Virus record (IMG/VR): IMGVR_UViG_3300023203_000736
Origin: a virus
Lineage: Duplodnaviria; Heunggongvirae; Uroviricota; Caudoviricetes
Length of the DNA stretch: 64,000 bases
Reading direction: 5' to 3' (one strand)
Shown here: one piece after another, positions 4,066-40,560 of the stretch
Layout: the number at the start of each line of letters is the position of its first letter
Numbering within the stretch: the first letter of the stretch is position 1
The notes under the pieces: model-generated
Database searches by the model: none
What the model saw: the letters and a program-made list of their open reading frames with translations, nothing else
What the model was told of the DNA's origin: nothing
Program-made: the position numbers and the translations under genes

Positions 4066-4370
4066 GCCGGTTGACCGTCCCTCCCGTTGATGCACGGCTT
4101 ATTGAGGTCACGCATCGGAACGCCGTGCTGCTCGAAGCAGGCGACTCCGAGGGTCACGACTTTTCGCAGACTCTCCAAGGTCTTCTCGTCGCCGTCCTCG
4201 CAGGTCGCCGTGCGGAACGCCTGGTCAAGGTAGTGCCTCATGTAGACCAGGAACTCGCCGACAGTGCGATTGTGCTCCTGGAAAGTGCCGTTCCATTGGC
4301 GTTGCCCCCAGCGGCGGGCCTGGTAGGCACGCTCGCTGGCGATTGCGTCGAAAATCATGTCGATGGTCAT
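4062..4370 (-). CDS. Small acidic protein, possibly a MazG-like all-alpha NTP pyrophosphohydrolase.
   Basis: ERAYQARRWG and TVGEFLVYM resemble the EExxE / EVGEL helices of MazG-type NTP-PPases. This is a weak call. ATGA overlaps on both sides. Confidence 0.3.
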   Translation of the reverse strand: MTIDMIFDAIASERAYQARRWGQRQWNGTFQEHNRTVGEFLVYMRHYLDQAFRTATCEDGDEKTLESLRKVVTLGVACFEQHGVPMRDLNKPCINGRDGQPA

Positions 4371-5440
4371 TCGTTGTCCTGTGCGCCTTTCCGATCGAGA
4401 TAGTCCGCGCTCACGCTTTTCAAGATCAGCCGGCCGCCGGTCGGAGCGTAGAAGTGCTCTACCTGCGGAGTGATGACGCAGCCTTCTCGATCCTTAAAGC
4501 TGCTCTTGATCTTGTCTGGAGTAGCCAACGTCGTGGGACCGTAGGTGAACTGATTCACGAGGTCTTTGCTGAACGGTCCCTCATAAAGCACGGGAACCAA
4601 TTCGACGCCGAACTGGGCGCAGGCGGCTTTCAGAGCCTCCCAGTCGAGATACCTGCCGTTGACGCTGATGTCGAAAACACGATAGCCATCCCTGTCCTTG
4701 ACTCCGTAGTCCAAGTCCTGGACGCCCGACCCGTAGATTTCCCCGAAAACGATCACTGAGTTCTTCTCATCACAGAGATGCGTGAGGAGATTCAAGACGC
4801 ATTCGTCTTCGAGCGGCTTCCAGTAGATGCACGCCTTGCCTTCTTCCGGCTTCTTCCGTCTGGTCCGATGGCTCCCGGCCATGAACTCGAATTCGCCGTT
4901 CTTGAGGATCAGGCCGACCCGGCTATTCGTGCCGTGAATCTTTTCCGTGATCCGAACGAGCGTTCCTTCCGCGAAGGCGTCAGGAAACCGCCAGATGTTC
5001 TCGATCTCCGTATACTTGTGAAACTGGCTATCCTCTGGCGCGAGATCGCCGGGAAAATACTTGGCCGGCGGTTCGTACTTCTTGGCGGCCCACATCACCG
5101 ACACGTCGCTTCCCAGGGGATGGGCGCGCAAGAGGTCGGGAGCAGGGATGACGAAACCGAAGCTCGGTTCGCCTCGCAGCCGGCAGGCCGCCACCCGACA
5201 CTGGCACTTGATGCCGTCGAGTTCGGCGTGTTTGAGGTACTTCTGGATGCCGAGCGTCTGGCTGACATCCTGTGGGATCAGAATTCCGGGAGGGAAGAAG
5301 ACTACCCGCTGACCTTGTTGGAACTCGCCCTTGCCGACGATCGTCGTGAGGCCCTTGATGACCGCGATTTCCAACTTGCTCGCGTTCGGATGGGGCCTCA
5401 CTTCATCAATGGTGGTGAGTTCAACGAAGAGGTTGGACAT
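4367..5440 (-). CDS. ATP-dependent RNA ligase, Rnl5-like (DraRnl/NgrRnl type), with an N-terminal OB-like domain.
   Basis: Nucleotidyltransferase motif I is TEKIHGTN (KxHGxN). The N-terminal region runs MSNLFVELTTIDEV...KLEIAVIKG. No C-terminal Rnl2 domain is present. Start is taken at MSNLF (5440). Confidence 0.6.
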   Translation of the reverse strand: MSNLFVELTTIDEVRPHPNASKLEIAVIKGLTTIVGKGEFQQGQRVVFFPPGILIPQDVSQTLGIQKYLKHAELDGIKCQCRVAACRLRGEPSFGFVIPAPDLLRAHPLGSDVSVMWAAKKYEPPAKYFPGDLAPEDSQFHKYTEIENIWRFPDAFAEGTLVRITEKIHGTNSRVGLILKNGEFEFMAGSHRTRRKKPEEGKACIYWKPLEDECVLNLLTHLCDEKNSVIVFGEIYGSGVQDLDYGVKDRDGYRVFDISVNGRYLDWEALKAACAQFGVELVPVLYEGPFSKDLVNQFTYGPTTLATPDKIKSSFKDREGCVITPQVEHFYAPTGGRLILKSVSADYLDRKGAQDNE

Positions 5441-5711
5441 AGGCGCGTACCTTGAGCGCTGGAGGATGGTTGGAGGAAAAGCTAGCGCAACGCCAGGCGC
5501 GGTTGGCGAGTCCTCTTCGACAGAGACCGCTTGCGCCAGCAAATTGGACTGACTGTGGCGGGATCGCCGAGTAGTCTAAGTCAACCTGGGAGTCTCCCAA
5601 GTATCAGGGCGCACACTGCCTTTTCGAGCAACGTCTTTTCCGGCAGCTAGGGACTGCTCTCCAGCGTTGCCGCTGGCATATTGCTCAGCCCATCAACTCC
5701 CAGGTCGGAAG

Positions 5712-6990: not shown

Positions 6991-7706
6991 CGGTCTTCCA
7001 TTGGTCGCTCGTGGTCAATCTTCTCCGCAAGCACTTTCTCGACTCGTTGGACGGCCTCAGCAAAATACTTGGCGTCCTTCTCGATTCCCACGAACCGCTT
7101 CCCGCTTCGGATCGCAGCCTCGGCCGTGGCACCCGATCCCATGAACCAGTCGCCGATTGCTTCGCCCGGCATCAAGGTAGCGAGCCGTTGCAGGAGTTCG
7201 ATTGGCTTCTCGGCTGGGTGAATGCGGTCGCTTGTTGGCACCACGCGGCACGCCAGGACGGTCCCTTGCGTGTCCGTGAGCGTTGCGCCGGTGCCGGAGC
7301 ACGCCAGGATCAACTCGTGCTGATGCCGCCACGGGCGGCCCATTCCGATCCGCTCCTTGTTCCAGACCAGACAGACCGATCGCGGGAACAGGCTGTAGGT
7401 AGCTTCGTAGAACACCGGGTAGCTCTGGGCATCACAGAAGAACAGGTGGTGAGCATCCTTGCCCGCGACCTTCTGTGACAGGCCCACGATTTGCTCAAAC
7501 CAGCCCCGCAGGATGCTCAGGTCTGCGTAGCAACGAGTCCAATCGCACTGCTCGGCCCGGCTCGCATAATGCTGAGCCGGAAGGAAGAACGGCGGGTCGG
7601 TGATGACCGCATCGACCATGCCGGCAGGCAAACGTTTTAGGACGTGTTCGGCATCACCGCAGAACAGCGAAATATCGTCCTGCTGCCAATCAGGCTTCAA
7701 GGTCAT
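6975..7706 (-). CDS. DNA methyltransferase, beta-class N6A/N4C (motif IV before motif I).
   Basis: DAVITDPPFF (DPPF) is N-terminal and FMGSGATAEAA (FxGxG) is C-terminal. Start is taken at MTLKPDW, which overlaps the DNA ligase stop as ATGA. Confidence 0.7.
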   Translation of the reverse strand: MTLKPDWQQDDISLFCGDAEHVLKRLPAGMVDAVITDPPFFLPAQHYASRAEQCDWTRCYADLSILRGWFEQIVGLSQKVAGKDAHHLFFCDAQSYPVFYEATYSLFPRSVCLVWNKERIGMGRPWRHQHELILACSGTGATLTDTQGTVLACRVVPTSDRIHPAEKPIELLQRLATLMPGEAIGDWFMGSGATAEAAIRSGKRFVGIEKDAKYFAEAVQRVEKVLAEKIDHERPMEDRCRVL

Positions 7707-8794
7707 TCCACGTCCCTCCGTCGCCAATAGCGGGCTTCCTTTGGGATTCCGTCATCGGTGAGTTCCCGGTACTTGAACGTGACCGTCTGGCCTGTCTTGA
7801 AGCACCGCCCCTGGAAGAACTTGGGCATATCCTCGCCCGGATGCTCGGCCGCCGTGCGGCTCATGTCGGGGTTGAGAAACTCGCGCTCGGCGTCCGTCAG
7901 GCCGGCAAGCTCCAGTCGCTTGCCTTGGTAGTCCACGATTAGGGCACCGATCTTGCCCAAGAGTCGGCTACCCTTGTCTGTCTCACGGCCGCTGGTGAAG
8001 CCGACGATCGCGGCTTCCGCATCCTCGAAGGGCTTGAACTTGAGTAAGCCCTTATGCCGCTTCGGCGTCCAAGTCGCCATCGGATCACGGATCACGCAAC
8101 CCTCGCCTCCCTGGTCGAGCACCTTTCGCAGGAACTCGTTGACCATCTCACGAGCGGCCTCCTCATCCTCGGGGAGCCGAATCTGCTGGTGGATGAACAC
8201 GCAATCGTTCTGGGCTTCCAGGAACTCGCGCAGGAACATCAACTCATCGTTAAAGGTCGCGGGCGTCTTCACCCAGCCATAGCCCGGCATCTTGTCGATG
8301 CGAGACTTGAGCCATTGGTCGATCTTCTCGAACTCCAGATTGCACACCATGTTCGGATTCTTGATCTCTCCCGACATGAACACGTATGGTAAAGCTGGCG
8401 CACTGTAGACCGCATAACTGATCCGATGGAAACGAGGGTCGGGATCATCACCGGCGCAGATCGACCGGCAGAGTTGAAACCCGCCCCGACCGGCCCAGAG
8501 TTCGCCGTCTAGCGGACACGCTGGCAGAGCGTTGAGAAAATCATCCGGGGCCATGATCGGATTCCCATACCGCGACCACAGACCCGTGGCAGATGGTTTG
8601 AGCTTGGACTTTCTCTTGCCGGTTTTCGGGTCTGTCACGCTGGCCCACGGTATTTGTTCGGTAGGGACGCCACGGCTTACACCGCCGTCCCAGAAGCAGC
8701 GAGTTCCGTCGAGCTTCTCGCTGACCAGGTAGCCGGCGATCTTGTGTTTGTCTGGGTTGTAGGTGTCGGCCAATTGCAGAAACTCACGACGCAC
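7703..8794 (-). CDS. ATP-dependent DNA ligase.
   Basis: Motif I is SEKLDGTR (KxDGxR). The ligase/OB architecture is about 360 aa. Confidence 0.8.
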   Translation of the reverse strand: MRREFLQLADTYNPDKHKIAGYLVSEKLDGTRCFWDGGVSRGVPTEQIPWASVTDPKTGKRKSKLKPSATGLWSRYGNPIMAPDDFLNALPACPLDGELWAGRGGFQLCRSICAGDDPDPRFHRISYAVYSAPALPYVFMSGEIKNPNMVCNLEFEKIDQWLKSRIDKMPGYGWVKTPATFNDELMFLREFLEAQNDCVFIHQQIRLPEDEEAAREMVNEFLRKVLDQGGEGCVIRDPMATWTPKRHKGLLKFKPFEDAEAAIVGFTSGRETDKGSRLLGKIGALIVDYQGKRLELAGLTDAEREFLNPDMSRTAAEHPGEDMPKFFQGRCFKTGQTVTFKYRELTDDGIPKEARYWRRRDVE

Positions 8795-9856: not shown

Positions 9857-9877
9857 AAAGCCTCCTTTGTCTCAAAA

Positions 9878-9949
9878 AGCCAGCGGCAGGGGTCGAACCT
9901 GCAACCTGCTGATTACAAGTCAGCCGCTCTTCCGTTGAGCTACACTGGC
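9878..9949 (-). tRNA. tRNA-Thr (anticodon TGT).
   Basis: Hand-folded as GCCAGTG-TA-GCTC-AACGGAA-GAGC-G-GCTGA-CTTGTAA-TCAGC-AGGTT-GCAGG-TTCGACC-CCTGC-CGCTGGC-T. The acceptor stem has 7 bp with one G-U pair. The D, anticodon and T arms are canonical. Confidence 0.8.
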
Positions 9950-10132
9950 TCCCAGTCCGATCACGACTGCGCGTCGGCGCTGGTCGTCTCGGCTTGGACC
10001 TCCTCGCACGGGGCGGTGTCGCACGGAGCCGCATCGGCGGCTTCGGTGCGTGGAGCCTCGGGAAGAGTCTGCTCTTCCGACTGAGGGCGGGTCTGGGTTT
10101 CGTCGTGCGTCATTGCGAGCACTCCTGTGGGG

Positions 10133-10306: not shown

Positions 10307-10866
10307 CAGGGTCTCCAAAACTGCTCGCCGAGATAGGCCACTGGATCGCGGCCGTGCAGCGAGTTCCACGGTCGGGGCACGAGGATCGCATTGCCGCCGC
10401 ATCGCTGAAATGCGGCGACGTTCTTGTCGCTGTCGTCGATCAGTAGGACGCCGGGCTTCGCACACAGATGCTTGGAAGGCCCGATGAGGAACTGCCGTTG
10501 CATCCACTTCGGGGCATGTTGCTGAATCCATTCCAGCTTTCCAGCCAGACAGTCGGCACTCAGCGTTGGACTGGTAAGGAAGTGAACATGCTCCTGGCCG
10601 ACCCTGGCCTCGGCCCATCCCAAGATGAAGCCGAACTCCGGTGAAAGCGGGACACCGGCCCAGATTTCACGGGTGATTGAGTTCCAAAACGCGGCCGGCG
10701 TGAATCGCTCATAGCCAGCCAGCCGATTCGCGGCACTCACGATGTCCCAGCCGCATTCGACCGGGTAGTGCGAGTCATCGGGATACGGCAGTCGGAGGTA
10801 ATCAAACACATGCTTGTGGAACGTATTGGAAACGCCGTCGATGTCCAGCAGGATGTTCTCAATCAT
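10306..10866 (-). CDS. HAD-superfamily nucleotidase-like phosphatase (paralog of 3547-4065).
   Basis: ILLDIDGVSN (DxDG) and LLIDDSDKNV...ILVPRPWN run colinear with LLIDDREDNV...LLCPRPWN in the paralog. Confidence 0.6.
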   Translation of the reverse strand: MIENILLDIDGVSNTFHKHVFDYLRLPYPDDSHYPVECGWDIVSAANRLAGYERFTPAAFWNSITREIWAGVPLSPEFGFILGWAEARVGQEHVHFLTSPTLSADCLAGKLEWIQQHAPKWMQRQFLIGPSKHLCAKPGVLLIDDSDKNVAAFQRCGGNAILVPRPWNSLHGRDPVAYLGEQFWRP

Positions 10867-11533
10867 CGGCGTATTCCGGGCAGCGTTCCTTGAGGCGCTT
10901 GTACAGCTTGCCGCGCCTTACAGTTACCGTGTTTTCAGCCATTCCAAGAGCCTCTCCGATCTCCCGGTCGTTGTAGCCTTCAATCCGCATTTCCACGATT
11001 CGCATGTCCTTTTGATCGAGACAACACGCCCTGATTTCTTCCTCAAGCTCCGGCCCCGCGAACAGATCAACGGCAAACCGTTTCGCGCAGAGGGTCTCAG
11101 CCGCGCTACCCCCAATCGTGCGCGGAGGCGTGATTGGCTGGTCCTTCTTTCGCGCAGCCTCTTGGGAGGCGTGAGGAATCACAATTGTGGATTCCTCGTC
11201 CAGCAACTTGTCGATGCGCTGGTCAATCGCCGTGTAGATGTAGCCGGTGGGATTGATCTTCTTTGCCCGAGTTCCCTTCTGCATTCGATCGACCGCCGCA
11301 CACAACCCCGACACGCCTGCCGAAATCATGTCTTCGCGCATGTGGGCCATCTTGGGGTTCCGTCGCAGGTAGTGGTCCACGCGCAATACCACCAACGCCG
11401 CATTGCCCAGGATCATCTCGTCACGCGCCTTGTCGTCGCCGGCAATCAGGCGTTGGTATACCTCCTCGTTCTTCTTTCGAGAAAACGCCTTGGTATGACC
11501 GGCGGCGCGGCAATGCTCCATCAGATTCATCAT
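10859..11533 (-). CDS. Sigma-70 family RNA polymerase sigma factor.
   Basis: The region-2-like block is QRLIAGDDKARDEMILGNAALVV. The region-4 HTH is REIGEALGMAENTVTVRRGKLYKRLKE. Start is taken at MMNLMEH, which overlaps the upstream stop as ATGA. Confidence 0.65.
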   Translation of the reverse strand: MMNLMEHCRAAGHTKAFSRKKNEEVYQRLIAGDDKARDEMILGNAALVVLRVDHYLRRNPKMAHMREDMISAGVSGLCAAVDRMQKGTRAKKINPTGYIYTAIDQRIDKLLDEESTIVIPHASQEAARKKDQPITPPRTIGGSAAETLCAKRFAVDLFAGPELEEEIRACCLDQKDMRIVEMRIEGYNDREIGEALGMAENTVTVRRGKLYKRLKERCPEYADD

Positions 11534-12099
11534 GGTGCTGTCCGATCCACTCGCCAAAGACAGTAGGTGTAGAGGCCACGGTTTTCGCAGGCTTTGCGCG
11601 AGTAAGAAAACTCGAATCCATCGGGATCGAAGATGCGTCCCTTCTCGTAGGCGAGAAGGTGATAACATCGAGGCCCCTGGCATTCGATGACGCCGCGAGA
11701 GGTCAAGAGTTGACGAGTGAATCGACTCCAGTTCTCTTCGTCAGTGCCAACGAGTGTTTTCCGCGCCGGGTCGTTGGCCGGTTCGATCGCCGCCCGCAAG
11801 GGAATCGGCGTCACGGCGTACCCCAGGTCCACGGCGACCTGGATCAACTCGTAGATGTTGTGACTGCGACGATTGGCCGGCTCCGGCAGATCGGGGAAGA
11901 TCACTTCTCCACCGTCATGCCCCAGCCGCTTCATCAAATCGGCGGCGGGGATGCCCAGCGCCATTGCAAACGCCGTTACGGCGCATTGCCATCGTTCATG
12001 CTTGATCTGCAACTTCACGTTCCGCCTCCAGGCGAGCGAGTTCATCGAGCAGTTCGTCGATGTCTGGAACGTCTCCCCAAGAGTCCTTCCAGAACTCAC
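11530..12099 (-). CDS. Hypothetical protein, possibly with a papain-like Cys/His fold.
   Basis: CAVTAFAMALG ... CYHLLAYEKGRIFDPDGF. The start is uncertain; an internal Met is at 12045. Confidence 0.4.
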   Translation of the reverse strand: MSSGRTLGETFQTSTNCSMNSLAWRRNVKLQIKHERWQCAVTAFAMALGIPAADLMKRLGHDGGEVIFPDLPEPANRRSHNIYELIQVAVDLGYAVTPIPLRAAIEPANDPARKTLVGTDEENWSRFTRQLLTSRGVIECQGPRCYHLLAYEKGRIFDPDGFEFSYSRKACENRGLYTYCLWRVDRTAP

Positions 12100-12415
12100 G
12101 CCAATTGGGCGGCGCGAACAGCTTGTCGTATTCCTCTTGGGTCGCGGCCGTAAGAATCCAGATGCCGCAACCGTACCGCTCCCACACGGGCCACTTGATC
12201 TTCTGCTCGCGCGTGAAGCTGTACTTGCCGGGGGTCTTTACGTCGATCCACCGGCCGCCCCATTTCGGATGATGGCAATAGAGATCAGGAATCCCGTACT
12301 GATAGGCGTTCCCGATCATCCGCTCGACAAGCCAGTTCCTCGCTTTGAGGAACGTGATTAGGTCGCGCTGAATGTACCATTCCGGCCCATGCTTAGGCCG
12401 TATGATACGCTTCAT
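11996..12415 (-). CDS. Putative VRR-NUC-like nuclease.
   Basis: Start MKRIIRPKHGPEWY. YGIPDLYCHH ... RWIDVKTPGK resembles the PD...(D/E)xK core of VRR-NUC. ATGA overlap with the upstream gene. Confidence 0.35.
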   Translation of the reverse strand: MKRIIRPKHGPEWYIQRDLITFLKARNWLVERMIGNAYQYGIPDLYCHHPKWGGRWIDVKTPGKYSFTREQKIKWPVWERYGCGIWILTAATQEEYDKLFAPPNWREFWKDSWGDVPDIDELLDELARLEAEREVADQA

Positions 12416-12606
12416 TCGTCGAGGATGGTGAACTGCTCGGGATGGGTCTTCACGGCATCCAAGTCGATCGTGAATCGGCCGGTGTGATCCTTGCCGAAGC
12501 CAATCAGGGCTTCGCAGAAGGGACCGTAGCGCCTCGTCATGCGGGGCGCGTCGTCCATCACCATGCCTGCCGGAATCACGATGTCCTGCTCGATTCGGAC
12601 TTTCAT
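12412..12606 (-). CDS. Hypothetical 64-aa protein.
   Basis: The ORF is coupled to its neighbours by 4-nt overlaps. Confidence 0.3.
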   Translation of the reverse strand: MKVRIEQDIVIPAGMVMDDAPRMTRRYGPFCEALIGFGKDHTGRFTIDLDAVKTHPEQFTILDE

Positions 12607-13013
12607 TTCTTCTCCGGTTTCTTCTCGGCCGGCTTAGCCGGCTTCTCTGTTCTCTTCTTTCTCGCAAAGCACCAGCGAAGCAACCGCCAGTACCACGGCA
12701 AGATGGTCGTGTCGATGTACTTGCCGTTGTCCCACACGACGGTCTTTGTCTCGACGCCATTCAGTTGAGTCACCCGCATGACGCGAACCTTCTCCTTGCG
12801 GTAGCGCACACGGGCATTCAGGATCGCCATGCGCGCAGCCTTCAATTCGGCCGGTCGCAGGTTCTTGACGACTCCCACTTCGACGCGCGGCCAGGGGAAC
12901 CACAACCGTCGCCAGACCTTCGCCACCGACCAAACGTAATCAGGGGCAAACGTCTGGATGTTGTCGTACCCGGACACCGCAGCAAGGTAGGTCTGTATCT
13001 TGAAAACGGTCAT
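12603..13013 (-). CDS. Hypothetical protein.
   Basis: Start is taken at MTVFKIQTYLAAV. The longer ORF's N-terminal extension overlaps the polymerase gene. Confidence 0.35.
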   Translation of the reverse strand: MTVFKIQTYLAAVSGYDNIQTFAPDYVWSVAKVWRRLWFPWPRVEVGVVKNLRPAELKAARMAILNARVRYRKEKVRVMRVTQLNGVETKTVVWDNGKYIDTTILPWYWRLLRWCFARKKRTEKPAKPAEKKPEKK

Positions 13014-13186
13014 GGGACCACCCAGATCGGAACCCACCTTGCCAAGATGGTAGAATGCTCGTGTGGTGGTGGGGTGCAAAGGGGAATGTGGGTCAAGCCT
13101 GGTGAACTTGGCCCAGCGGAGAAAGCGTTGAAGCGCTAAAAACGCCGAGCGAGTACCCCGTCCCGTCCCCACCACCACACTGTTTC

Positions 13187-15757
13187 TCACATCATTTCCG
13201 GCGCGCGGATTTTGACCTTTTCCGCTCCGTCCTTCTTCTCAGCCCAGTTGGCCATCTCCTCGAACCAGGACATGCCGATCAGCGGCACCTTGTCACGGTA
13301 GGACTCGACGACACGGCGAACCGTTGCCGTCACCTGCTTCACGACGCTCGGGTGCGTGCTGCACATGAGTTCGTCGTGGACGTTCATCGGGCCGACGAGA
13401 AGCTCATGGATTCCCGCCGGTTGGATGTCCCAGATTGCCCGCTGCACGGCCTTCGTGATCTGGCCGCCAGGCGATTGAATCTCATGGTTGGCCGCCGCTC
13501 GCATGTTGGCGGCTTGAATCTGGAAGGCGGCTCCATACAAGGCGCTGGCGACGGCACCGCCGGCGGTCTGAATCCTGTCACTGCGATGAACCTTGACTGG
13601 GTGGTTCCGCCAGCCTTTGGGCGGCTTCCGAGCAAGCTCAAACAGCGCCCGGCAAATCTTGTTCTCCAAAGTGAAGTAGCGGCGGAATCCCAGGAAGCTC
13701 TCGACAAACTCGGCCGGTTCGTCCCACACAACCTGCGAGCCGATGCCTCCGGGTTGCTTCATCGAGCAGAACTTCTTTATCGTCCGCTCGCGGGCCTTGC
13801 CGATGCCCTTGTACCGATTGGCCCATTCCTCGTGAGCCTTCCTGGCTTGCGCCTCGCTGATGCTCAGGTTGCGTTGCAGCGTCTTTTCGTTGCCACCGTA
13901 AATCTCAGCGAAGACGCCGCTCTTGCCCTTCTTGTACTTCTCCTTGTCCGCGACCACTTCCTCATAGCTGCAATCGAAGAGAACCATGCCGAAGAGGGCG
14001 TGTATCTTTTTGGTTCCAATGCCGGTCCCATCGCACTCCTCGCACTCATGTGTGCCAGTGCCGTGGCACTTTCGGCACTTCTTCGAGTGGCACTTGCCTG
14101 TGCCGTTACACTCGATGCAAGGTGCCTTCGTTATGAGGGTCTTACGAATCTCAGGGTCGTTGTAGACCGCATCCGCAATCGTGACCTCGAAGCTATCAAA
14201 GTCGCCGCCGCAGAGGTTGTAACCCGGCCATGCCAGGGGAAACATGCAGCGGACTTCATCCGAACCCTTGATGCCTTGGGCATTCAGACCATCGCCGCCG
14301 CTCATGCGGTTGCTGAGCGTGCCCACGATGTTGAAGCTCGCGTGGAACTTGCCAGCGAAGATCAGCTTGGTGAAAAGCTCGACCTCCTTGACCGCGTGCT
14401 TGACCGTCAATAGTTCCTTGGCTCGCACGGCGGCAGGATGTTCCTGACCGGCGGTAAGGTGGCCGAGTCCGTTACATCGCTTGCAGATGCCGTCTTTCAG
14501 TCGGCCAGTTCCGCCGCACTTCAGGCAGTGCTCATGGACATGGATTCCATCCCAAGCCTCCACGCCCGCCGTACCGATCTCGTCTTCGTCATCGTCATCT
14601 TCATCCTCGATGACCTTGTATTTGGTTGTGGCTTCCAGGTTCTGCTTCTTCGTCGATTCCTGAATTTTGAGGCTCTCAATGTCGTCCATGACCTCCATCA
14701 GGTAGGCCCGGACGGCGGCCGGCTTGTTGATGTTCACGGGCGAGGCGGCGACCACCGCCTTCGCCTTCTCCAGCAAGCCCTCCATGCCCTCCACGTTGAT
14801 TGTGAAGCCACGCCAGCGAATCACCGGGACCATGCAGGCGAGAATCGAATCGTCGTCGCCCGGCGTCGGATAGCCAAAGTGCTTATCGAGCGCCCGCGTG
14901 TAAACGATGTCGTCCGTCGCGTAGTCCCGAGCGTCCGGGCGGTTAGCCCAGTGCTCGATGAAATGATGAATGACTGCGGGCCAGGCTCGGCCGGCGAGCT
15001 TCTGCTTGCCGTCCTTTTCCGACCATACTTCCCAGTTCTTTTCAGGGCTGCTCACCGCCAGGGCGGTTGGAGCATAGCCGACTTCGTAGGGCCGCCACGC
15101 TGGATCAGGTTCGACATCCTTGTAGTGGTACTTCGGGGTCAATCCCATCGCGTGTTCAGCAAGGAACTTCAAGCCGCCCGCCGGATTGAATCTCAGGCAT
15201 ACGTCCTTGAAGTCCTCATCCACCAATCCGTCGCGGTTGCGACGATCGAACACCTGCCACTTCGGGGCGTCCTTGTCCGCACTCTTGGCGAAGTAGATGT
15301 CGTCAAGCTCGATGCGTTGCTCCAACCCCTGCGCCAACGCATACGCCAGCGCGGTGGGCACCTTCCGTATCCTGATGTCCTCACGAGCCATCAGGCTTTG
15401 GTACGGTCCCTTACGGGAGTGCAACAGCAGGTCAAGGGCGCTGGCCGGCTTCACGCAGGGGCCGTCCTGCCCTTTTGGCTCCAGCAGGGCAATCTCCTCG
15501 ATATGCTCGCAAGGAATCCAACTGGGATCAGCCAGGCGAAACGTCGTGTAGGTCTTGACGATATGGAACCAGTCGAAAGCCAGGTTGAAGCCGACAACCG
15601 TGTGTTCACACAGCCACTCGATCAGCGCAAGGGTCTCGCGGATCGGCCGTCGCCAGACTTCGTACAATGCAATAGGGCCTTCTCCCTCCGCATACTGGAG
15701 GAGCACCATCTGCGAGTGTAGTCCGCAGGTTTCTGTATCAAGGTAGACTTTGCTCAT
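13187..15757 (-). CDS. Family A DNA polymerase with 3'-5' exonuclease and two inserted DnaJ-type zinc-finger arrays.
   Basis: Exo I is YLDTETCG. Pol motif A is CGGDFDSFEV, motif B is KSGVFAEIYGGN and motif C is NVHDELM. The inserts are CLKCGGTG/CKRCNGLG (near 14461-14527) and CIECNGTG/CRKCHGTG/CEECDGTG (near 14023-14119). Confidence 0.85.
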   Translation of the reverse strand: MSKVYLDTETCGLHSQMVLLQYAEGEGPIALYEVWRRPIRETLALIEWLCEHTVVGFNLAFDWFHIVKTYTTFRLADPSWIPCEHIEEIALLEPKGQDGPCVKPASALDLLLHSRKGPYQSLMAREDIRIRKVPTALAYALAQGLEQRIELDDIYFAKSADKDAPKWQVFDRRNRDGLVDEDFKDVCLRFNPAGGLKFLAEHAMGLTPKYHYKDVEPDPAWRPYEVGYAPTALAVSSPEKNWEVWSEKDGKQKLAGRAWPAVIHHFIEHWANRPDARDYATDDIVYTRALDKHFGYPTPGDDDSILACMVPVIRWRGFTINVEGMEGLLEKAKAVVAASPVNINKPAAVRAYLMEVMDDIESLKIQESTKKQNLEATTKYKVIEDEDDDDEDEIGTAGVEAWDGIHVHEHCLKCGGTGRLKDGICKRCNGLGHLTAGQEHPAAVRAKELLTVKHAVKEVELFTKLIFAGKFHASFNIVGTLSNRMSGGDGLNAQGIKGSDEVRCMFPLAWPGYNLCGGDFDSFEVTIADAVYNDPEIRKTLITKAPCIECNGTGKCHSKKCRKCHGTGTHECEECDGTGIGTKKIHALFGMVLFDCSYEEVVADKEKYKKGKSGVFAEIYGGNEKTLQRNLSISEAQARKAHEEWANRYKGIGKARERTIKKFCSMKQPGGIGSQVVWDEPAEFVESFLGFRRYFTLENKICRALFELARKPPKGWRNHPVKVHRSDRIQTAGGAVASALYGAAFQIQAANMRAAANHEIQSPGGQITKAVQRAIWDIQPAGIHELLVGPMNVHDELMCSTHPSVVKQVTATVRRVVESYRDKVPLIGMSWFEEMANWAEKKDGAEKVKIRAPEMM

Positions 15758-16149
15758 GGCACAGATGGTTGCGGCTTGAAGACCTTGTAGCCGTCCTCGT
15801 CGTAAGACAGGTCTGCGTAGTAGCGTTTGTCGAGCGACTTCCGTTCGGCGTCCCTCTCCAGAGAGAAACGTTCATACCGCTCTTCCGCATCCCATGCCTT
15901 GAGCGCTTTCTTTAGCGTCGGAAAGACCCCAAGATGTGCGCCCTTGTAGGTGGCCGTGATACGGTCTCCCACCACCTCGACGCCTTGGCCGAAGGGCAGA
16001 AGCCTTCGGGCCTTGGGCGGCGGGATGGGGCGCTTCTGTGCGATCGCTTCTTTGACGGTTTCCGCTTCGTCCTCTTCCAGACGGTAGATCACTTTGCCGT
16101 TTGGGAGTCTGACAGCGAATTGAAAGTCGTTCTCGTATTGGTCGTACAT
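15754..16149 (-). CDS. Hypothetical protein.
   Basis: 131-aa ORF whose stop overlaps the polymerase start. Confidence 0.45.
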   Translation of the reverse strand: MYDQYENDFQFAVRLPNGKVIYRLEEDEAETVKEAIAQKRPIPPPKARRLLPFGQGVEVVGDRITATYKGAHLGVFPTLKKALKAWDAEERYERFSLERDAERKSLDKRYYADLSYDEDGYKVFKPQPSVP

Positions 16150-16300: not shown

Positions 16301-17935
16301 CTAGTTGCGAATGAAGTCCGCCATCAAGGCAGGGCAGGATGCGTCGAATCCGACGACATCCAACATGCCGGCGTCGTTCGGGTCGGCGATCGTAAACCCG
16401 GTGGCCGTCATGCCAACGACAATCAGCTTGGCATTGATGCCCGTGGCCTGACGGTACTGCATGAGGGCCTGGCTGGGATGGATGTGCCCAGCCCAGGTCT
16501 CATTGTCCGTGTAGACCACGAAAGCATCGACTTCGAGCCGATTCTTGAGGGCATAGATCATCGGGAGAGCGCAGTCGGTGCCGCCCATCGGAATCTGCTC
16601 GATCGCCTGGATCACGCCGTTGAGACCCTTCCGTTTCGAGATGTCCACGGGCACCAGTTCGTGCGAGAAGCCGACCACGTGAGTCTGCGGCTCGACCTTC
16701 TGAGTCACCATCGACATGCAGGCTGAAGCCTTTCGGGCGTCCAGGTGCGTGCCGGCTAGGTGCTCCCAACCCATCGACCCGGACACGTCCAGGGCCAGCA
16801 AGTGCCGCTTGCCGGTCGGCTCGACGGTATCGAAGGCCGCGTAGAAGGCGTCCTCCAAGGCGTCGGTGATCTGGGGCACCGGCTGCCACGTCAGGCTGCC
16901 TTTGACGCCGTGGCCGCTACCATAGGTGTCGGCCGCGATCAGGATAGACAGCGGATGCACGCGAGCGCCTTTGAGCCGCTCCTTGTTCGTGAGCGTGTCG
17001 CACACCAGCTTCGTCGCCAACGACAGCGGTTTGAGCAGGCCAACGCTGGTCATCTTGCCGAGGTTCCGAATCATGGCCGTGGGCGGCAGATTCGGTAGCA
17101 AGGCGTCCCAAACCTTCGGGTTGCCCAGCAGCGTGTTGGGCACGTGTTCCAGGGTCACGCCATAATTCTGAATCAACTGGATGGCTGCCTTCTCGTCGGC
17201 AGTACCGAGCTTGTTGATCTCGTTAAAGCCAGCAATGAGGGCCAGCGCCTGACCGCCGTAGGCCACAGCGAACCCGGCGCTCCGACCGTTGGTGTATGCC
17301 TCTGGCAGGGTTCCGTGCGTGAGCCAACGATAGATCGCGTTCCGTTGCGAATCAGTTGTCTTCGGATGGCTCAGCCGCAGCACATCGCGGTGCGTGTAGC
17401 CGGCGCGGTTACGGTACTTCGTAACCTGATAGGCCAGCTTATCCGCAGGCTTGGCGTTGTACCAAGCCGCAACCGCCTCACGCAGGCCACGGCCCCAGCC
17501 GCGCAGTTCCTTGCAGTTGGCGACGAACTGGAACAGGTGGGTCGCCGTGCGGCAGACGCGAGGCATCGCGGCCAAGGCTCGATGCCGGAGGTAGCCCTGG
17601 TCCTGCTGGCTCGCCAGCAAAGCCAGGGCGAAGATTGCAGGATCGTTCTTTGGAGCACGTCCCAACTCGCTGATCGCGGCGATCGTCTCGACGGCGCGAA
17701 TGGCGTCGGTCTTCCCGCATTCAATCACCACGTTGGCATTGTCGGCCGTCAACTGCTGCTCGCCCACATAGTAGGTGCCGCCCTCGCTGCCAAGGATCAG
17801 GAACCGCTCCAGACGGCTCCAGCAATCGAGAGTGTGGCTGTAGCCGCCGGCGCTGTTCTCCGCCTGGCGCTTGCCGGGAATCGGCCGGCTCTGCGGAGTA
17901 ACTCGGGACGACACATGCTTGGCAAGGGTCTGCAT
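16301..17935 (-). CDS. rsr: Ro60 ortholog Rsr (TROVE domain plus C-terminal vWA/MIDAS).
   Basis: [22 protein letters not shown] and PAIFALALL are colinear with human Ro60 [22 protein letters not shown] and PMLFALAIC. C-terminal [11 protein letters not shown] is a DxSxS MIDAS motif. Confidence 0.9.
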   Translation of the reverse strand: [544 protein letters not shown]

Positions 17936-18095: not shown

Positions 18096-18226
18096 GCACG
18101 CCGGTAGGACTTGAACCTACGACCACAGGTTCCCATTGTGATAACGCTCCCAATTCGGCCCATCAGGCAAGGGACTTGGAAGCGGTTTTCTGATACCTGT
18201 GCTCTGACCAACTGAGCTACGGCGTA
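18096..18226 (-). ncRNA. tRNA-like / Y-RNA chimera A (YrlA-like).
   Basis: Acceptor TACGCCG/CGGCGTG, D-arm GCTC-AGTTGGTCA-GAGC and T-arm GTAGG-TTCAAGT-CCTAC are present. The anticodon position is occupied by a ~65-nt insert that contains UGGGCCGAAUUGGGAGCGUUAUC. Confidence 0.55.
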
Positions 18227-18370: not shown

Positions 18371-18408
18371 CCTTTGGATGACGTAGCTCAATTCGCTTTC
18401 CGTTCAAC
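18371..18408 (-). promoter_or_regulatory. Conserved 38-nt element R1. It starts at the ParB-like stop codon and lies immediately 5' of Y-RNA chimera B.
   Basis: Minus strand: TGAACGGAAAGCGAATTGAGCTACGTCATCCAAAGGAGG. It is nearly identical to R2 at 24421-24458. Confidence 0.4.
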
Positions 18409-19204
18409 TTTTGTCCCGTTTTGCCGATTCGATGTCGTGATCGAGTTCTTCGTCGTTGATATATCCCGCACACCACGCTCCAAACCGCGTAACCAGTCCG
18501 CCCAGACCGGCTTCGAGCAATTGCCCGATGCGGGCATTGATCTCTTCCTTGCCGCGCCGATAGCGAAATGTCCTCCGATACCTGGGATTGACGTTGATCT
18601 TACGCTTGTTCTTGCCGCGAGCCGCGATGATCTCGTTCGCGGCTTGAATCTGCTCATCAGGCGGCAGCTTCACCAAGGCGTCAACGTCGAGCAGCGTCAG
18701 CATACGAGCGGCGACCTTCTCGCGGAGTTCCTCGGGAAGCTCCATGATCCGAAGCCGCTGATGTACCCAACGTGTATCCCGATTCATTTCCTGGGCAATC
18801 GCCCGAAGACTTGCACCCTTCGGAAACCGCCTGGCGATTGCCTGTGCCTGTTCAAGAGGATTGAGGTCTTCGCGTTCCAGGTTCTCCGTGAGGTTCAGAA
18901 TCTCGGCCGCCCGATCGGTGAGGCCCCGCCGGATGTTCGCCGGAATGCCGGTCCATCTCAGAAACGTCTTGACCGCCGCCAGACGACGGAAACCCGCAAC
19001 CAAGCGATACGGCTCCACAAAGCCGGCTTGGCTGTCCTCGCGCTGTTGAAGAATCACCGGAATTTCAAGTCCCGCCTGCGCGATATTGTCCGCTAGCCCC
19101 TTGACGGACTGAAATGTAAACGCAGTGCGGCAGTTGAAGTCGGGATCAACCCAGATGTCGGTGAGCGGAACGTCGTACACGTCATAGCGACTAAGGCGTT
19201 CCAT
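18404..19204 (-). CDS. ParB-like nuclease-domain protein.
   Basis: LVAGFRRLAAV is the GxRR ParB-box. Start is taken at MERLSRYDVY (19204), because the longer ORF runs over tRNA-Asn. Confidence 0.65.
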   Translation of the reverse strand: MERLSRYDVYDVPLTDIWVDPDFNCRTAFTFQSVKGLADNIAQAGLEIPVILQQREDSQAGFVEPYRLVAGFRRLAAVKTFLRWTGIPANIRRGLTDRAAEILNLTENLEREDLNPLEQAQAIARRFPKGASLRAIAQEMNRDTRWVHQRLRIMELPEELREKVAARMLTLLDVDALVKLPPDEQIQAANEIIAARGKNKRKINVNPRYRRTFRYRRGKEEINARIGQLLEAGLGGLVTRFGAWCAGYINDEELDHDIESAKRDKS

Positions 19205-19252
19205 AGATGCCTCGGTAGACGAAAAACGGCCCGACCGAAGCCGGGCCAAAAG

Positions 19253-19325
19253 CTGCATCGCCTGGAGTCGAACCAGGAACCACAGCATTAACAGTGCCGC
19301 GCTCTACCATTTGAGCTACGATGCA
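19253..19325 (-). tRNA. tRNA-Asn (anticodon GTT).
   Basis: TGCATCG-TA-GCTC-AAATGGTA-GAGC-G-CGGCA-CTGTTAA-TGCTG-TGGTT-CCTGG-TTCGACT-CCAGG-CGATGCA-G. All arms are canonical. Confidence 0.85.
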
Positions 19326-25242: not shown

Positions 25243-26121
25243 CTAACTCGAATCTATGGGCGCATCCAGAACCTCTCTTTCTCTGCGGGCACGCACCCCA
25301 GCTTCCTGTTGCCGCACGCTGGCTTTGTCGAGATGGCAGGCCCACCGCAGGCCGGCGTAGAAGCCATCGAGCACGTTCAGGCAATCCTCGGCCGCGCAGA
25401 TCAGTGCTCCGACTTCCTTCTTTTCAATCTCGTGTACGATCTCTTTGACGTGATGAAGATGGGCCTCGGGTCGGAACTCGTCCGAATAGAAGGCGTCCAT
25501 CTTGCCCTGCTTGACCGCCTCCCGGAACTGCTTGACGCACGCCGCCGCCAACGGCTTGAATTCCCTGGCGGGCATGACCTTGGCCCGATCCACGTAGTCC
25601 TTTTGCATGGACCGTGGAATCGTGGCCAACTTGTAAGCGTTCTCAATGGGAATCTCGCCCCGATCGACCATCACCTGAATCTCTTTCAGCAGGTTGGTCA
25701 GATCGAGGCACTTCCCGACCCAGCGAGGCTGCTTGCGGATGAGACAAGCCAACTCGCCTTGGGTCATGCCGGGATTGCGCACCAGCAGCCTCTTGAGTTG
25801 CTGGGCATACTCGGCCTGCTTCGTTTCCGGCGAGATCGCGTTCGCCTGAAGCATCAGGACAAGAGCTTCGTCATCGCTACACTCCCTGATGATGCAGGGC
25901 AGCGCGTCCCGGCCGACTTCGCGGGCGGCTGTGTAGCGCTGGAGGCCGTTGATGATCTCGTAGCCGCCTTCGACAGGCCGCACGAGAAGCGATTGCAGGA
26001 TGCCCTTTTCCCGGATGCTGTCTCGCAGTTCCAGGTACTCGACGCTATCCCGATTCACGCCTCGCAGTTTGATCTTGGGTTCTCGCAGGACGTGGATCGG
26101 GAGGAACTCGATCTGGTCCAT
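25243..26121 (-). CDS. ParB/Srx-like domain protein.
   Basis: EIINGLQRYTAAREVG is a ParB-box. Start is taken at MDQIEFLPIHVL (26121). The upstream extension is an artefact of the inverted repeat. Confidence 0.6.
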   Translation of the reverse strand: MDQIEFLPIHVLREPKIKLRGVNRDSVEYLELRDSIREKGILQSLLVRPVEGGYEIINGLQRYTAAREVGRDALPCIIRECSDDEALVLMLQANAISPETKQAEYAQQLKRLLVRNPGMTQGELACLIRKQPRWVGKCLDLTNLLKEIQVMVDRGEIPIENAYKLATIPRSMQKDYVDRAKVMPAREFKPLAAACVKQFREAVKQGKMDAFYSDEFRPEAHLHHVKEIVHEIEKKEVGALICAAEDCLNVLDGFYAGLRWACHLDKASVRQQEAGVRARREREVLDAPIDSS

Positions 26122-26142
26122 GCGACGACTCCCTTTTCCACA

Positions 26143-26178
26143 AATACAGTAGCCTAGATCGCCACGATTCCTCAATGA
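26143..26178 (-). promoter_or_regulatory. Promoter-like motif P1 (TTGAGG-N18-TACTGT), 22 nt upstream of the 26121 start.
   Basis: Minus strand: TCATTGAGGAATCGTGGCGATCTAGGCTACTGTATT. It forms an inverted-repeat partner with P2 and is repeated at 61363-61398. Confidence 0.4.
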
Positions 26179-39523: not shown

Positions 39524-39555
39524 CGTGCTTGCTAGATTCTTGAATTGCTCGGCCA

Positions 39556-40536: not shown

Positions 40537-40560
40537 TGTGTTTCCTTCAAGCAAAAGAAA

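What the first reader, a model, noticed from the sequence alone, without database searches (positions are those of the whole stretch)
13187..15757. Family A DNA polymerase carrying two DnaJ-type CxxCxGxG zinc-finger arrays
The polymerase has Exo I (DTETCG), motif A (DFDSFEV), motif B (KSGVFAEIYGG) and motif C (VHDE). It also contains the array CLKCGGTG...CKRCNGLG between the exonuclease and polymerase domains. A second array, CIECNGTG...CRKCHGTG...CEECDGTG, lies between motifs A and B in the fingers region. The CxxCxGxG spacing is that of the DnaJ or CR-type zinc finger. I do not know of this insertion in family A polymerases. It may act as a processivity or protein-docking module, by analogy with the thioredoxin-binding loop of T7 DNA polymerase.
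Basis: seen in the sequence. Interest (0 to 1): 0.6.

Follow-up and report, generated by a model that had tools for sequence, protein, structure and literature searches.

The report
Phage DNA polymerase with zinc-finger inserts
A DNA-copying enzyme of an uncultured virus of Planctomycetota bacteria carries two small zinc-binding add-ons next to its DNA cleft: one type was already reported in marine phages, while the other, in the fingers, appears undescribed, and what either does is unknown.

Summary
ORF 13187-15757 (-) is one 856-aa family A polymerase with all exonuclease and polymerase catalytic residues. It has five CxxCxGxG motifs in two arrays; 0 of 20,000 shuffles gave three or more.

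Array 1 is not between the exo and pol domains. It sits in the thumb tip, between Klenow helices H2 and I. It has a published precedent: HMO-2011-type marine phage polymerases carry a "partial DnaJ central domain" with two CxxCxGxG motifs. That module sits one helix earlier, and the T7 thioredoxin-binding domain one helix earlier again.

Both loops are insertion hot spots. Among 140 representatives, 69 have neither insert, 32 only the first, 10 only the second and 29 both. One relative has a J domain nested in the thumb knuckle.

The family belongs to uncultured tailed phages and prophages, mainly of Planctomycetota. Function is inferred only: accessory docking or processivity modules. This is a new variant of a known kind, of moderate interest.

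The parts
13187..15757 (-). Single ORF of 856 aa: family A DNA polymerase with a 3'-5' exonuclease domain
   Evidence: PF00476, 62.9 bits; phrog_17, 4e-33; Foldseek to Klenow 1kfs, 7e-15; AF2 model, pLDDT 83.9, pTM 0.83.
14858..15757 (-). Enlarged 3'-5' exonuclease domain, residues about 1-300, with Exo I (D7, E9), Exo II (N58, D62) and Exo III (Y279, D283)
   Evidence: All six residues are invariant in the family alignment. Alignment to E. coli Pol I begins at query residue 274 = PolA 492.
14441..14626 (-). Insert 1 as a whole (residues 378-439), in the thumb tip between the helix H2 and helix I equivalents
   Evidence: hhalign to E. coli Pol I places it between D620 and Y621. The AF2 secondary structure shows short helices at 363-377, then the insert, then a long helix at 441-468. 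Insert-free relatives read 'EIATWEGH' here.
14579..14608 (-). Poly-acidic run E384-E393 (EDEDDDDEDE) inside a linker predicted to be disordered
   Evidence: pLDDT is below 50 for residues 385-407. Net charge of residues 378-408 is -10. A linker this acidic (net charge -5 or lower) occurs in 28 of 98 relatives, including the closest ones.
14462..14527 (-). Thumb zinc knuckle C411LKCGGTG...C425KRCNGLG; predicted to form one Cys4 zinc site
   Evidence: C411, C414, C425 and C428 are invariant in 98 relatives. pLDDT is about 85. The motif is confirmed. Zinc binding is inferred, not measured.
14183..14203 (-). Polymerase motif A, D519FDSFEV
   Evidence: D519 and E524 are invariant. It aligns to Klenow D705YSQIEL.
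14012..14131 (-). Insert 2 (residues 543-582), in the fingers loop that precedes the helix carrying H586
   Evidence: It is a clean indel against relatives that read 'LLSGKKIH'. It aligns into Klenow 'FAEG|KDIH734'.
14021..14119 (-). CR-type zinc hairpin C547-G579. The outer site is predicted as C547/C550 + C572/C575. The inner site is predicted as C556/C561/C564 plus probably H570
14000..14002 (-). H586, the equivalent of Klenow H734 and T7 H506, four residues after insert 2
   Evidence: Invariant in the family. Aligned. Its role in triphosphate contact is recalled from the literature, not tested here.
13892..13924 (-). Motif B (O helix), K612SGVFAEIYGG, with Phe at the Klenow-762 position
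   Evidence: K612, F616 and Y620 are invariant. Aligned to Klenow K758, F762 and Y766.
13370..13381 (-). Motif C, V793HDE796
   Evidence: H794, D795 and E796 are invariant. Aligned to Klenow VHDE.

Best explanation
WHAT IT IS (shown). This is one active replicative family A DNA polymerase (exo+ and pol+) of an uncultured tailed phage or prophage lineage found mainly in Planctomycetota (Thermoguttaceae, Pirellulales). Two surface loops that flank the DNA cleft carry small cysteine-rich modules.
1. Thumb tip, between helices H2 and I: one predicted Cys4 knuckle built from two CxxCxGxG motifs, preceded by a disordered poly-Asp/Glu linker.
2. Fingers, in the loop four residues before the His that corresponds to Klenow H734: a nested hairpin with two predicted zinc sites and the DnaJ/BSD2 cysteine-rich (CR) fold.

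Both loops are insertion hot spots in this polymerase clade. Modules of different size and sequence are present or absent in all four combinations, so they are accessory and not catalytic.

HOW IT MOST LIKELY WORKS (inferred). The zinc ions make the short excursions rigid, so they project from the mobile thumb and fingers as docking platforms for a protein partner. The partner could be a replisome component such as the phage helicase or primase, or a host factor. The modules would tune replisome coupling and processivity in the way the T7 thumb insert serves as a hub for thioredoxin, gp4 and gp2.5. They would not act as DnaJ-type chaperone domains.
For: Anatomy:
- establish the ORF, the catalytic motifs and the insert positions.

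Accessory nature and hot spots:
- Among 140 full-length representatives clustered at 50% identity, 69 have no insert, 32 have only insert 1, 10 have only insert 2 and 29 have both.
- Parsimony on a neighbour-joining tree needs at least 31 state changes for insert 1 and at least 24 for insert 2.
- Two sequence flavours occur at the fingers site: the CxxCxGxG type and an 'LLTCxxC...CPxCG' type.
- Three prophage polymerases in one Thermoguttaceae chromosome differ in insert content.

Pointers towards a shared role and protein docking:
- The two inserts co-occur (odds ratio 6.25, Fisher p 7.7e-6).
- Neither module is consistently basic across the family. The thumb knuckle core has mean net charge 0.0 in close relatives and -1.7 in distant ones. 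Insert 2 has +0.9 and +0.1. This argues against generic DNA-backbone binding.
- The loop of the thumb knuckle tolerates a whole J domain with an HPD motif in homologue P0096 (PF00226, 32.6 bits against a cutoff of 27.8). The loop is therefore probably solvent-exposed and able to present a protein-interaction domain.
- The thumb tip is also where T7 carries its docking insert.
Against: - No partner has been identified. The small ORFs that overlap the polymerase gene are conserved only in the closest relative, and the conserved VRR-NUC-like neighbour is present whatever the insert state.
- Within the query's own subclade the distal part of insert 2 is basic (mean +3.0, positive in 85% of sequences) with a conserved 'KK'. 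That fits DNA contact at least as well as protein docking.
- The co-occurrence statistic is not corrected for phylogeny.
- Half of the family works without either module.
- Zinc binding itself is inferred from sequence.
Confidence: 0.45

Rival explanations
1. Direct DNA contact. The thumb-tip knuckle and the basic tip of the fingers CR hairpin touch the primer-template duplex and the template or downstream DNA. This would give a clamp-free polymerase higher intrinsic processivity or strand-displacement ability, a cofactor-independent counterpart of T7 TBD-thioredoxin.
For: - Both inserts sit on the two mobile subdomains that line the DNA cleft.
- In the query, the thumb knuckle core has net charge +3.
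- In the query's subclade the distal part of insert 2 averages +3.0 (positive in 85% of sequences), while the proximal knuckles are acidic (-2.1). The sequence 'SKKC' is conserved in the closest relatives.
- Thumb-tip inserts in other PolAs are linked to DNA handling: the T7 TBD raises processivity, and POPs carry a thumb-tip beta-hairpin (PMC10201439).
- No clamp or thioredoxin gene turned up among the roughly 30 window ORFs that I annotated. The search was not exhaustive.
Against: - Across the wider family the modules are not basic. The thumb knuckle core is negative in 70% of distant representatives, and insert 2 is positive in 41% and negative in 44%.
- The stretch between the two CxxC pairs of insert 1 is mostly acidic or neutral.
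- A linker of net charge -10 sits next to the thumb knuckle.
- Known CR-type domains bind proteins, not DNA (general knowledge).
Confidence: 0.3
2. Near-neutral decoration. These two loops simply tolerate insertions, and short Cys4 'zinc staples' are an easy way for an inserted peptide to fold. The modules would persist without a specific function, or would only add stability.
For: - 69 of 140 representatives have neither module.
- At least 24 to 31 gains or losses are needed on the tree.
- Length, number of zinc sites and sequence vary widely, and two unrelated flavours occur at the fingers site.
- Co-resident prophages in one host chromosome differ in insert content.
Against: - Within clades the cysteine and glycine positions are strictly kept. 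Four cysteines of insert 1 are invariant in 98 sequences that are down to 57% identical to the query.
- The two inserts co-occur more often than expected (odds ratio 6.25).
- Both hot spots are functionally sensitive places, the thumb tip and the loop next to H586, not arbitrary loops.
- The tip of insert 2 shows a conserved charge polarity in the query's clade.
Confidence: 0.2
3. True Hsp40-like function. The CR modules act as DnaJ zinc centres do, holding a client or cooperating with host DnaK (Hsp70), or acting as a thiol-redox element. They would assemble or remodel the replisome, as DnaJ and DnaK do in lambda replication.
For: - The fold match is exclusively to DnaJ-CR and BSD2.
- One homologue, P0096, has a bona fide J domain with HPD nested inside the thumb knuckle. 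It lies in a syntenic phage replication module.
- The HMO-2011 literature raises the DnaJ link (PMC9038755).
Against: - The J-domain variant is a singleton among 270 sequences examined. A targeted search found no second one, although that search was weak.
- There is no G/F region and no DnaJ C-terminal substrate-binding domain.
- Similarity to E. coli DnaJ is at motif level only (hhalign probability 13.7%).
- The Pfam score is below the gathering threshold.
Confidence: 0.05

Closest known systems
DNA polymerase of HMO-2011-type marine phages (Puniceispirillum phage HMO-2011 gp12, RCA phages CRP-1/2/3): 'partial DnaJ central domain'
   Same: A phage family A polymerase with a 3'-5' exonuclease domain and two CxxCxGxG motifs inserted in the thumb-tip region. 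Pfam-based descriptions place them 'between the exonuclease and polymerase domains'. Function is unknown there too.
   Different: - The insertion point differs. In HMO-2011 the motifs (C294, C319) lie between the equivalents of Pol I Q594 and S606, in the H1-H2 loop. Here the knuckle follows H2, at D620|Y621.
- HMO-2011 has nothing at the fingers site; it reads 'EEVSTG|FDVH' there.
- It is a different PolA clade. tblastn of the query against 50,697 phage records gives no hit at E<=1e-5.
- The phage type differs: here there is a tape-measure protein and a superfamily helicase plus a DUF5906 protein, whereas HMO-2011 has DnaB-type replication genes.
Thioredoxin-binding domain (TBD) of T7 DNA polymerase gp5
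   Same: An accessory insert at the tip of the thumb of a phage replicative family A polymerase. In T7 it is a docking hub and processivity determinant (PMC10201439).
   Different: - The T7 insert ends just before 'F334NPSS', which equals Pol I 'F578NLSS'. It therefore lies between helices H and H1, two helices upstream of the site used here.
- There is no sequence similarity.
- The TBD has no zinc motifs and works through host thioredoxin.
- T7 has no CR module in the fingers.
DnaJ/Hsp40 cysteine-rich (CR) zinc-finger domain and plant BSD2-type CR proteins (PF00684; PDB 1exk, 6ekb)
   Different: - The Pfam score is below the gathering cutoff (26.1 against 32.7 bits).
- Insert 2 has three canonical repeats plus a degenerate C556/H570 pair instead of four repeats.
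- It is embedded in a polymerase loop rather than between a J domain with G/F region and the DnaJ C-terminal domains.
- Similarity to E. coli DnaJ is at motif level only.
Thumb and fingers inserts of other family A polymerases (Pol theta and Pol nu inserts, plant organellar POPs, the SPO1-like fingers beta-hairpin)
   Same: Lineage-specific ordered insertions in the thumb tip and fingers that modify DNA handling. The 2023 reclassification of PolAs catalogues them (PMC10201439).
   Different: None of those is zinc-dependent. That survey does not contain the words zinc, DnaJ or cysteine at all. The site before the H734-equivalent His is not among the sites it describes. That last point rests on my reading of the passages retrieved, not on the full paper.

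Membership tests
Family A DNA polymerase (PF00476), exo-proficient | Pfam DNA_pol_A score above the gathering cutoff | tested here: met
   62.9 bits against a cutoff of 34.3, E 3.3e-17. phrog_17 DNA polymerase, E 4e-33.
Family A DNA polymerase (PF00476), exo-proficient | Motifs A (DxxxxE), B (KxxxFxxxYG) and C (HDE), with catalytic residues conserved | tested here: met
   D519, E524, K612, F616, Y620, H794, D795 and E796 are invariant in 98 relatives. They align to Klenow D705, K758, F762, Y766 and D882.
Family A DNA polymerase (PF00476), exo-proficient | Klenow-like fold | tested here: met
   AF2 model with pLDDT 83.9. Foldseek hits: 1kfs at 7e-15, 7r0k at 1.2e-14, then Bst, Pol nu and Pol theta.
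Family A DNA polymerase (PF00476), exo-proficient | Exo I, II and III carboxylates of the DnaQ-like 3'-5' exonuclease | tested here: met
   D7, E9, D62, Y279 and D283 are conserved in every sequence that covers them.
DnaJ CR-type zinc finger (PF00684) | CxxCxGxG repeats | tested here: met
   Five repeats, at residues 411, 425, 547, 561 and 572. None of 20,000 shuffles gave three or more.
DnaJ CR-type zinc finger (PF00684) | Pfam score above the gathering cutoff | tested here: not met
   26.1 bits against a cutoff of 32.7, E 1.1e-5. Homologues P0085 (30.4 bits) and P0015 (25.2 bits) are also below it.
DnaJ CR-type zinc finger (PF00684) | Four repeats forming two nested zinc centres (repeats 1+4 and 2+3) | tested here: inconclusive
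   Insert 2 has three canonical repeats plus C556 and H570. Larger homologues have four CxxC pairs in nested order. Insert 1 has only two repeats, so it is half a CR domain. Metal ligation was not measured.
DnaJ CR-type zinc finger (PF00684) | CR fold (V-shaped zinc hairpin as in 1exk and 6ekb) | tested here: met
DnaJ CR-type zinc finger (PF00684) | Hsp40 context (J domain, G/F region, C-terminal client-binding domains) | tested here: not met
   No J domain or DnaJ_C in the query. Only homologue P0096 has a J domain.
HMO-2011-type atypical DNA polymerase | Two CxxCxGxG motifs upstream of the Pfam polymerase domain | tested here: met
   Query motifs at residues 411 and 425. HMO-2011 motifs at residues 294 and 319.
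HMO-2011-type atypical DNA polymerase | Same insertion point in the thumb | tested here: not met
   In HMO-2011 the module precedes 'STSKTNLELLE' (H2). Here it follows 'STKKQNLEA' (H2).
HMO-2011-type atypical DNA polymerase | Close sequence relationship: the literature criteria are at least 25% identity over at least 80% of the length to an HMO-2011-type DNAP HMM | tested here: not met
   No tblastn hit at E<=1e-5 in 50,697 phage records, a collection that includes HMO-2011. The hhalign match covers only 302 columns at 24% identity.
T7-like polymerase with thioredoxin-binding domain | Insert between thumb helices H and H1 | tested here: not met
   The T7 insert lies N-terminal to F334NPSS, which equals Pol I F578NLSS. 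The query insert lies at D620|Y621.
T7-like polymerase with thioredoxin-binding domain | Binds host thioredoxin | not testable with these tools
   This needs biochemistry or complex modelling.

The most novel reading that the evidence does not exclude
The thumb knuckle and the fingers CR hairpin are two halves of one built-in device. One possibility is a zinc-stabilised gate that closes over the DNA, making a clamp-free and cofactor-free processive family A polymerase. The other is an Hsp40-like adaptor through which the polymerase is handed to, or remodelled by, host DnaK. The natural variant that carries a complete J domain inside the thumb knuckle hints at the second possibility. Either would be a mode of polymerase accessory function not described for family A enzymes, evolved repeatedly at two hot spots.
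Probability: 0.12. Interest if true: 0.75.

Novelty: new variant of a known kind. Interest (0 to 1): 0.5.

Why it matters
Thumb-tip inserts are how several family A polymerases gain processivity or partners, the T7 thioredoxin-binding domain being the textbook case. Engineered fusions at such sites are used to improve commercial polymerases.

This work places zinc modules at three different thumb-tip loops in three phage lineages. It also shows a CR-type two-zinc hairpin at a second site, next to the His that aligns with Klenow H734. That site is not mentioned in the HMO-2011 papers or in the 2023 survey of PolA structural features.

The family offers natural controls with neither, one or both inserts. 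The function of the modules can therefore be tested directly by domain swaps.

It also corrects the published description 'between the exonuclease and polymerase domains' by showing that such modules lie within the thumb.

If the modules turn out to be neutral decorations, the value is limited to annotation of a widespread, uncultured group of Planctomycetota phages.

Tried and rejected
1. Two genes, a frameshift or an intein. Rejected: it is one ORF, full-length homologues align throughout, and there are no intein-like termini.

2. A close relative among sequenced phages. tblastn gave no hit at E<=1e-5. At E<=10 there were only partial PolA matches of 20-29% identity, with Thermus phage TSP4 the best at 1e-7. 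The nearest BFVD models are at most 14% identical.

3. My remembered accession for HMO-2011 (KC465899) was wrong; it is Pelagibacter phage HTVC008M. NC_021864 was the right record.

4. An electrostatic latch between the acidic thumb linker and the basic tip of insert 2. There is no significant association between the two features (Fisher p 0.14).

5. General basic charge as a signature of DNA binding. It is not found family-wide. It holds only for the distal part of insert 2 in the query's subclade.

6. A partner gene that co-varies with the inserts. The small ORFs that overlap the polymerase gene are found only in the closest relative. The VRR-NUC-like neighbour is present whatever the insert state.

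7. Sequence homology of insert 2 to E. coli DnaJ. Only motif-level similarity was found (probability 13.7%).

8. More polymerases carrying a J domain. A search with the P0096 insert region returned only short fragments and no second case. That search scored only 98 candidates, so it is weak.

10. Literature searches for a zinc module in PolA thumb or fingers found only the HMO-2011-type papers. The 2023 PolA reclassification never mentions zinc, DnaJ or cysteine.
Full report
**Observation**

The ORF at 13187..15757 on the minus strand is a single 856-aa reading frame. Pfam scores it as DNA_pol_A at 62.9 bits (cutoff 34.3), and PHROGs as DNA polymerase phrog_17 at 4e-33. An AlphaFold2 model built on 98 homologues has mean pLDDT 83.9 and pTM 0.83. 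Foldseek matches it to Klenow fragment (1kfs, 7e-15), phage G20c Pol I, Bst Pol I, Pol nu and Pol theta.

The catalytic residues are invariant in the family: D7, E9, N58, D62, Y279 and D283 for the exonuclease, and D519, E524, K612, F616, Y620, H794, D795 and E796 for the polymerase.

The five CxxCxGxG motifs start at residues 411, 425, 547, 561 and 572. None of 20,000 shuffles of the protein gave three or more, and no other ORF in the window has the motif.

**Where the arrays sit**

I aligned a profile of the family to E. coli Pol I (probability 99.3%, E 3.4e-20).
- Query 'ESTKKQNLEATTKY' aligns with Klenow 'PSTSEEVLEELALD620', which is thumb helix H2.
- Query 'HPAAVRAKELLTVKHAVKE' aligns with 'Y621PLPKVILEYRGLAKLKS', which is helix I.

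Array 1, together with the linker before it (residues 378-439), is therefore an insert in the tip of the thumb. It is not a linker between the exonuclease and polymerase domains. It looks like a linker only because the Pfam polymerase match begins at profile position 93. The model agrees: short helices at 346-377, then the insert, then a 28-residue helix at 441-468.

Array 2 (residues 543-582) falls in Klenow 'FAEG730|K731DIH734'. This is the fingers loop that ends four residues before the invariant H586. From memory of the Pol I literature, the equivalent His (Klenow H734, T7 H506) contacts the incoming dNTP triphosphate, and the mobile part of the fingers begins about there. I did not test either point here.

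**Anatomy of the modules**

In insert 1, C411, C414, C425 and C428 are invariant in 98 relatives that are down to 57% identical to the query. Two CxxC pairs imply one Cys4 zinc site, which is half of a DnaJ CR domain. Before it lies an acidic run, E384-E393. Residues 378-408 have net charge -10, and residues 385-407 have pLDDT below 50.

In insert 2, C547, C550, C561, C564, C572 and C575 are invariant and C556 nearly so among 33 insert-bearing fragments. Larger homologues have four CxxC pairs in nested order. In the query the second pair is reduced to C556, and the conserved H570 is a plausible fourth ligand. That assignment is inference.

**The family**

The word-indexed search found 1,701 relatives among the 8,000 candidates it scored. 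The exhaustive search of representatives clustered at 50% identity found 645 at E<=1e-3 and 383 at E<=1e-30. IMG/VR holds 195 relatives on contigs of up to 177 kb, the best of them 92% identical.

In genome assemblies the gene occurs mostly in Planctomycetota MAGs (Thermoguttaceae, Pirellulales, Planctomycetaceae). More distant copies occur in Chloroflexi, Cloacimonadota and other phyla. One 4.2-Mb Thermoguttaceae chromosome carries three copies, so these are integrated prophages.

The window itself is a tailed-phage genome or prophage. It encodes:
- a large terminase, a portal, a major head protein, a tape-measure protein and tail fibres;
- a replication module with a helicase, an exonuclease, two ParB-like proteins, DNA and RNA ligases, a DUF5906 protein and a VRR-NUC-like nuclease.

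No sequenced phage in the 50,697-record collection matches the polymerase at E<=1e-5. The nearest viral structure models are at most 14% identical.

**Both insert sites are hot spots**

Among 140 full-length representatives, 69 have neither insert. Their sites read 'EIATWEGH' (site 1) and 'LLSGKK' (site 2), colinear with Klenow. A further 32 have only the thumb module, 10 only the fingers module and 29 both.

The modules vary in several ways:
- The thumb site can hold one or two knuckles.
- The fingers site can hold one-zinc or two-zinc forms.
- The fingers site comes in two sequence flavours, CxxCxGxG and 'LLTCxxC...EY...CPxCG'.

Fitch parsimony on a rough neighbour-joining tree of 666 core columns needs at least 31 state changes for insert 1 and at least 24 for insert 2. 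With shuffled tip states the means are 45.6 and 34.2. The two inserts co-occur with an odds ratio of 6.25 (Fisher p 7.7e-6), not corrected for phylogeny.

The three prophage polymerases in the single Thermoguttaceae chromosome differ. One has both inserts and two have only a thumb knuckle. The host therefore does not dictate the insert state.

**Precedent**

[quoted passage not shown] This feature is used as a criterion for recognising HMO-2011-type phages (PMC6918029 and PMC9038755). The GenBank record annotates PF00684 on that protein.

I compared positions directly:
- In HMO-2011 the motifs (C294, C319) lie after 'INLNSPEQLSWVIYSRR' (Pol I helix H1, up to Q594) and before 'STSKTNLELLESVA' (helix H2). 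That places them in the H1-H2 loop.
- In the present family the knuckle follows H2.
- The T7 thioredoxin-binding domain ends immediately before 'F334NPSS', which equals Pol I 'F578NLSS'. It therefore lies between H and H1.

Three phage lineages thus decorate three different loops of the thumb tip. HMO-2011 has nothing at the fingers site.

The 2023 reclassification of family A polymerases catalogues ordered insertions, including the TBD, the Pol gamma AID, the POP thumb hairpin and the SPO1-like fingers hairpin. It never uses the words zinc, DnaJ or cysteine (PMC10201439). Other literature searches found no description of a zinc module in PolA fingers. The library covers only open-access papers, so absence there is not proof.

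**Mechanism**

Nothing here was measured, so what follows is inference. The modules are accessory, because half of the family lacks them. Within clades they are conserved, and both lie on the mobile subdomains that flank the DNA cleft.

I favour protein docking (about 0.45), for these reasons:
- CR-type domains of known function bind proteins.
- The modules are not consistently basic. The thumb knuckle core has mean net charge 0.0 in close relatives and -1.7 in distant ones. Insert 2 has +0.9 and +0.1.
- The thumb tip is where T7 docks thioredoxin, helicase and SSB.
- In homologue P0096 the loop between the two CxxC pairs of the thumb knuckle accommodates a complete J domain with an HPD motif (PF00226, 32.6 bits against a cutoff of 27.8). 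That protein lies in a syntenic 98-kb phage contig. The loop is therefore probably exposed and usable for presenting an interaction domain.

Direct DNA contact is the main rival (about 0.3). In the query's own subclade the distal part of insert 2 is basic (mean +3.0, positive in 85% of sequences) while its base is acidic (-2.1). 'SKKC' is conserved in the closest relatives, and the query's thumb knuckle core is +3.

Near-neutral 'zinc staple' decoration (about 0.2) fits the frequent gains and losses. It fits poorly with the strict within-clade conservation and the co-occurrence of the two inserts.

A true Hsp40-like role (about 0.05) rests mainly on the single J-domain variant. A targeted search found no second one, but that search scored only 98 candidates.

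An electrostatic latch between the acidic thumb linker and the basic tip of the fingers module was tested and not supported (p 0.14). No gene neighbour co-varies with the inserts.

**Limits**

- Zinc binding is predicted from sequence only.
- The tree is crude, and the association test ignores phylogeny.
- A newer Pfam family, PF27659, is precomputed on some homologues N-terminal to the polymerase domain. It is absent from the library available here, so I cannot say what it describes.

**Verdict**

The thumb-tip zinc knuckle is a positional variant of a published but functionally unexplored feature of HMO-2011-type polymerases. Three things appear to be new:
- the CR-type two-zinc hairpin in the fingers;
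- the hot-spot pattern of presence and absence at both sites;
- the variant carrying a J domain.

I rate it as a new variant of a known kind, with moderate interest (0.5).

Noticed in passing
window 16301-17935 (-) and 18096-18226 (-): The gene next to the polymerase encodes a Ro60/TROVE protein with a vWA domain (vWA_Ro60 2.5e-68, TROVE 1e-46). About 160 nt upstream of it, the Rfam tRNA model matches a 131-nt stretch at 47.5 bits across the whole model. That implies a large insertion, and ARAGORN does not call it a tRNA. It could be a tRNA-like Y RNA of the YrlA kind paired with a phage Ro60.
   Followed up: partly
L005:10001-12661 (protein P0096, residues about 435-487): A homologous polymerase (the 886-aa protein gave a 1140-bit match to the query) has a complete J domain with an HPD motif (PF00226, 32.6 bits against a cutoff of 27.8). 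It is nested between the two CxxC pairs of the thumb zinc knuckle. The protein lies on a 98-kb JGI contig with the same replication-module synteny. No second example was found.
   Followed up: partly
window 11996-12760 (-); loci L005, L007-L032: A VRR-NUC-like nuclease lies just downstream of the polymerase in the window. The listed ORF is 254 aa, but only its last 130 residues or so are conserved, so the true start is probably near M116 (about 12415). It was found in 25 of the 28 related loci searched, usually just downstream of the polymerase, whatever their insert state (phrog_93 endonuclease 7.6e-5; tblastn).
   Followed up: partly
L007, L021, L028 (OY762224.2, Thermoguttaceae chromosome, at 1.51, 2.17 and 2.72 Mb): One complete 4.2-Mb Thermoguttaceae chromosome carries three diverged copies of this polymerase (87%, 54% and 55% identical to the query). 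These are presumably three prophages, and they differ in insert content.
   Followed up: partly
window 4367-5542 (-) and 7703-8794 (-): The phage encodes an RNA ligase (PF09414, 1.9e-20, with a PHA02142 OB domain) and an ATP-dependent DNA ligase. Together with Ro60 and two tRNA genes (Thr at 9877-9950, Asn at 19252-19325), this suggests an RNA-repair or RNA quality-control module.
   Followed up: no
window 37578-38552, 38552-39616 and 39556-40554 (all -): Three consecutive paralogous genes all match phrog_19068 and have tail-fibre-like N-termini. They look like a tandem array of receptor-binding or tail-fibre variants.
   Followed up: no
window 18404-19288 (-), 25243-26175 (-) and 10859-11683 (-): The replication region contains two ParB-like genes and a sigma-factor-like gene (phrog_351, 5.5e-14).
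   Followed up: no
homologues P0015, P0021, P0025-P0034 and others: The precomputed annotations list a Pfam family PF27659.1 N-terminal to the polymerase domain on some homologues. That accession is not in the Pfam copy available here, and rescanning P0021 and P0015 did not return it. What it describes is therefore unknown.
   Followed up: partly
window 15754-16149 (-) and 12603-13190 (-): Two small ORFs of unknown function overlap the polymerase start and stop by 4 nt each, which suggests translational coupling. Neither has a PHROG hit. The first is found only in the closest relative (L007). The second is found in L007 and, more weakly, in L012.
   Followed up: partly
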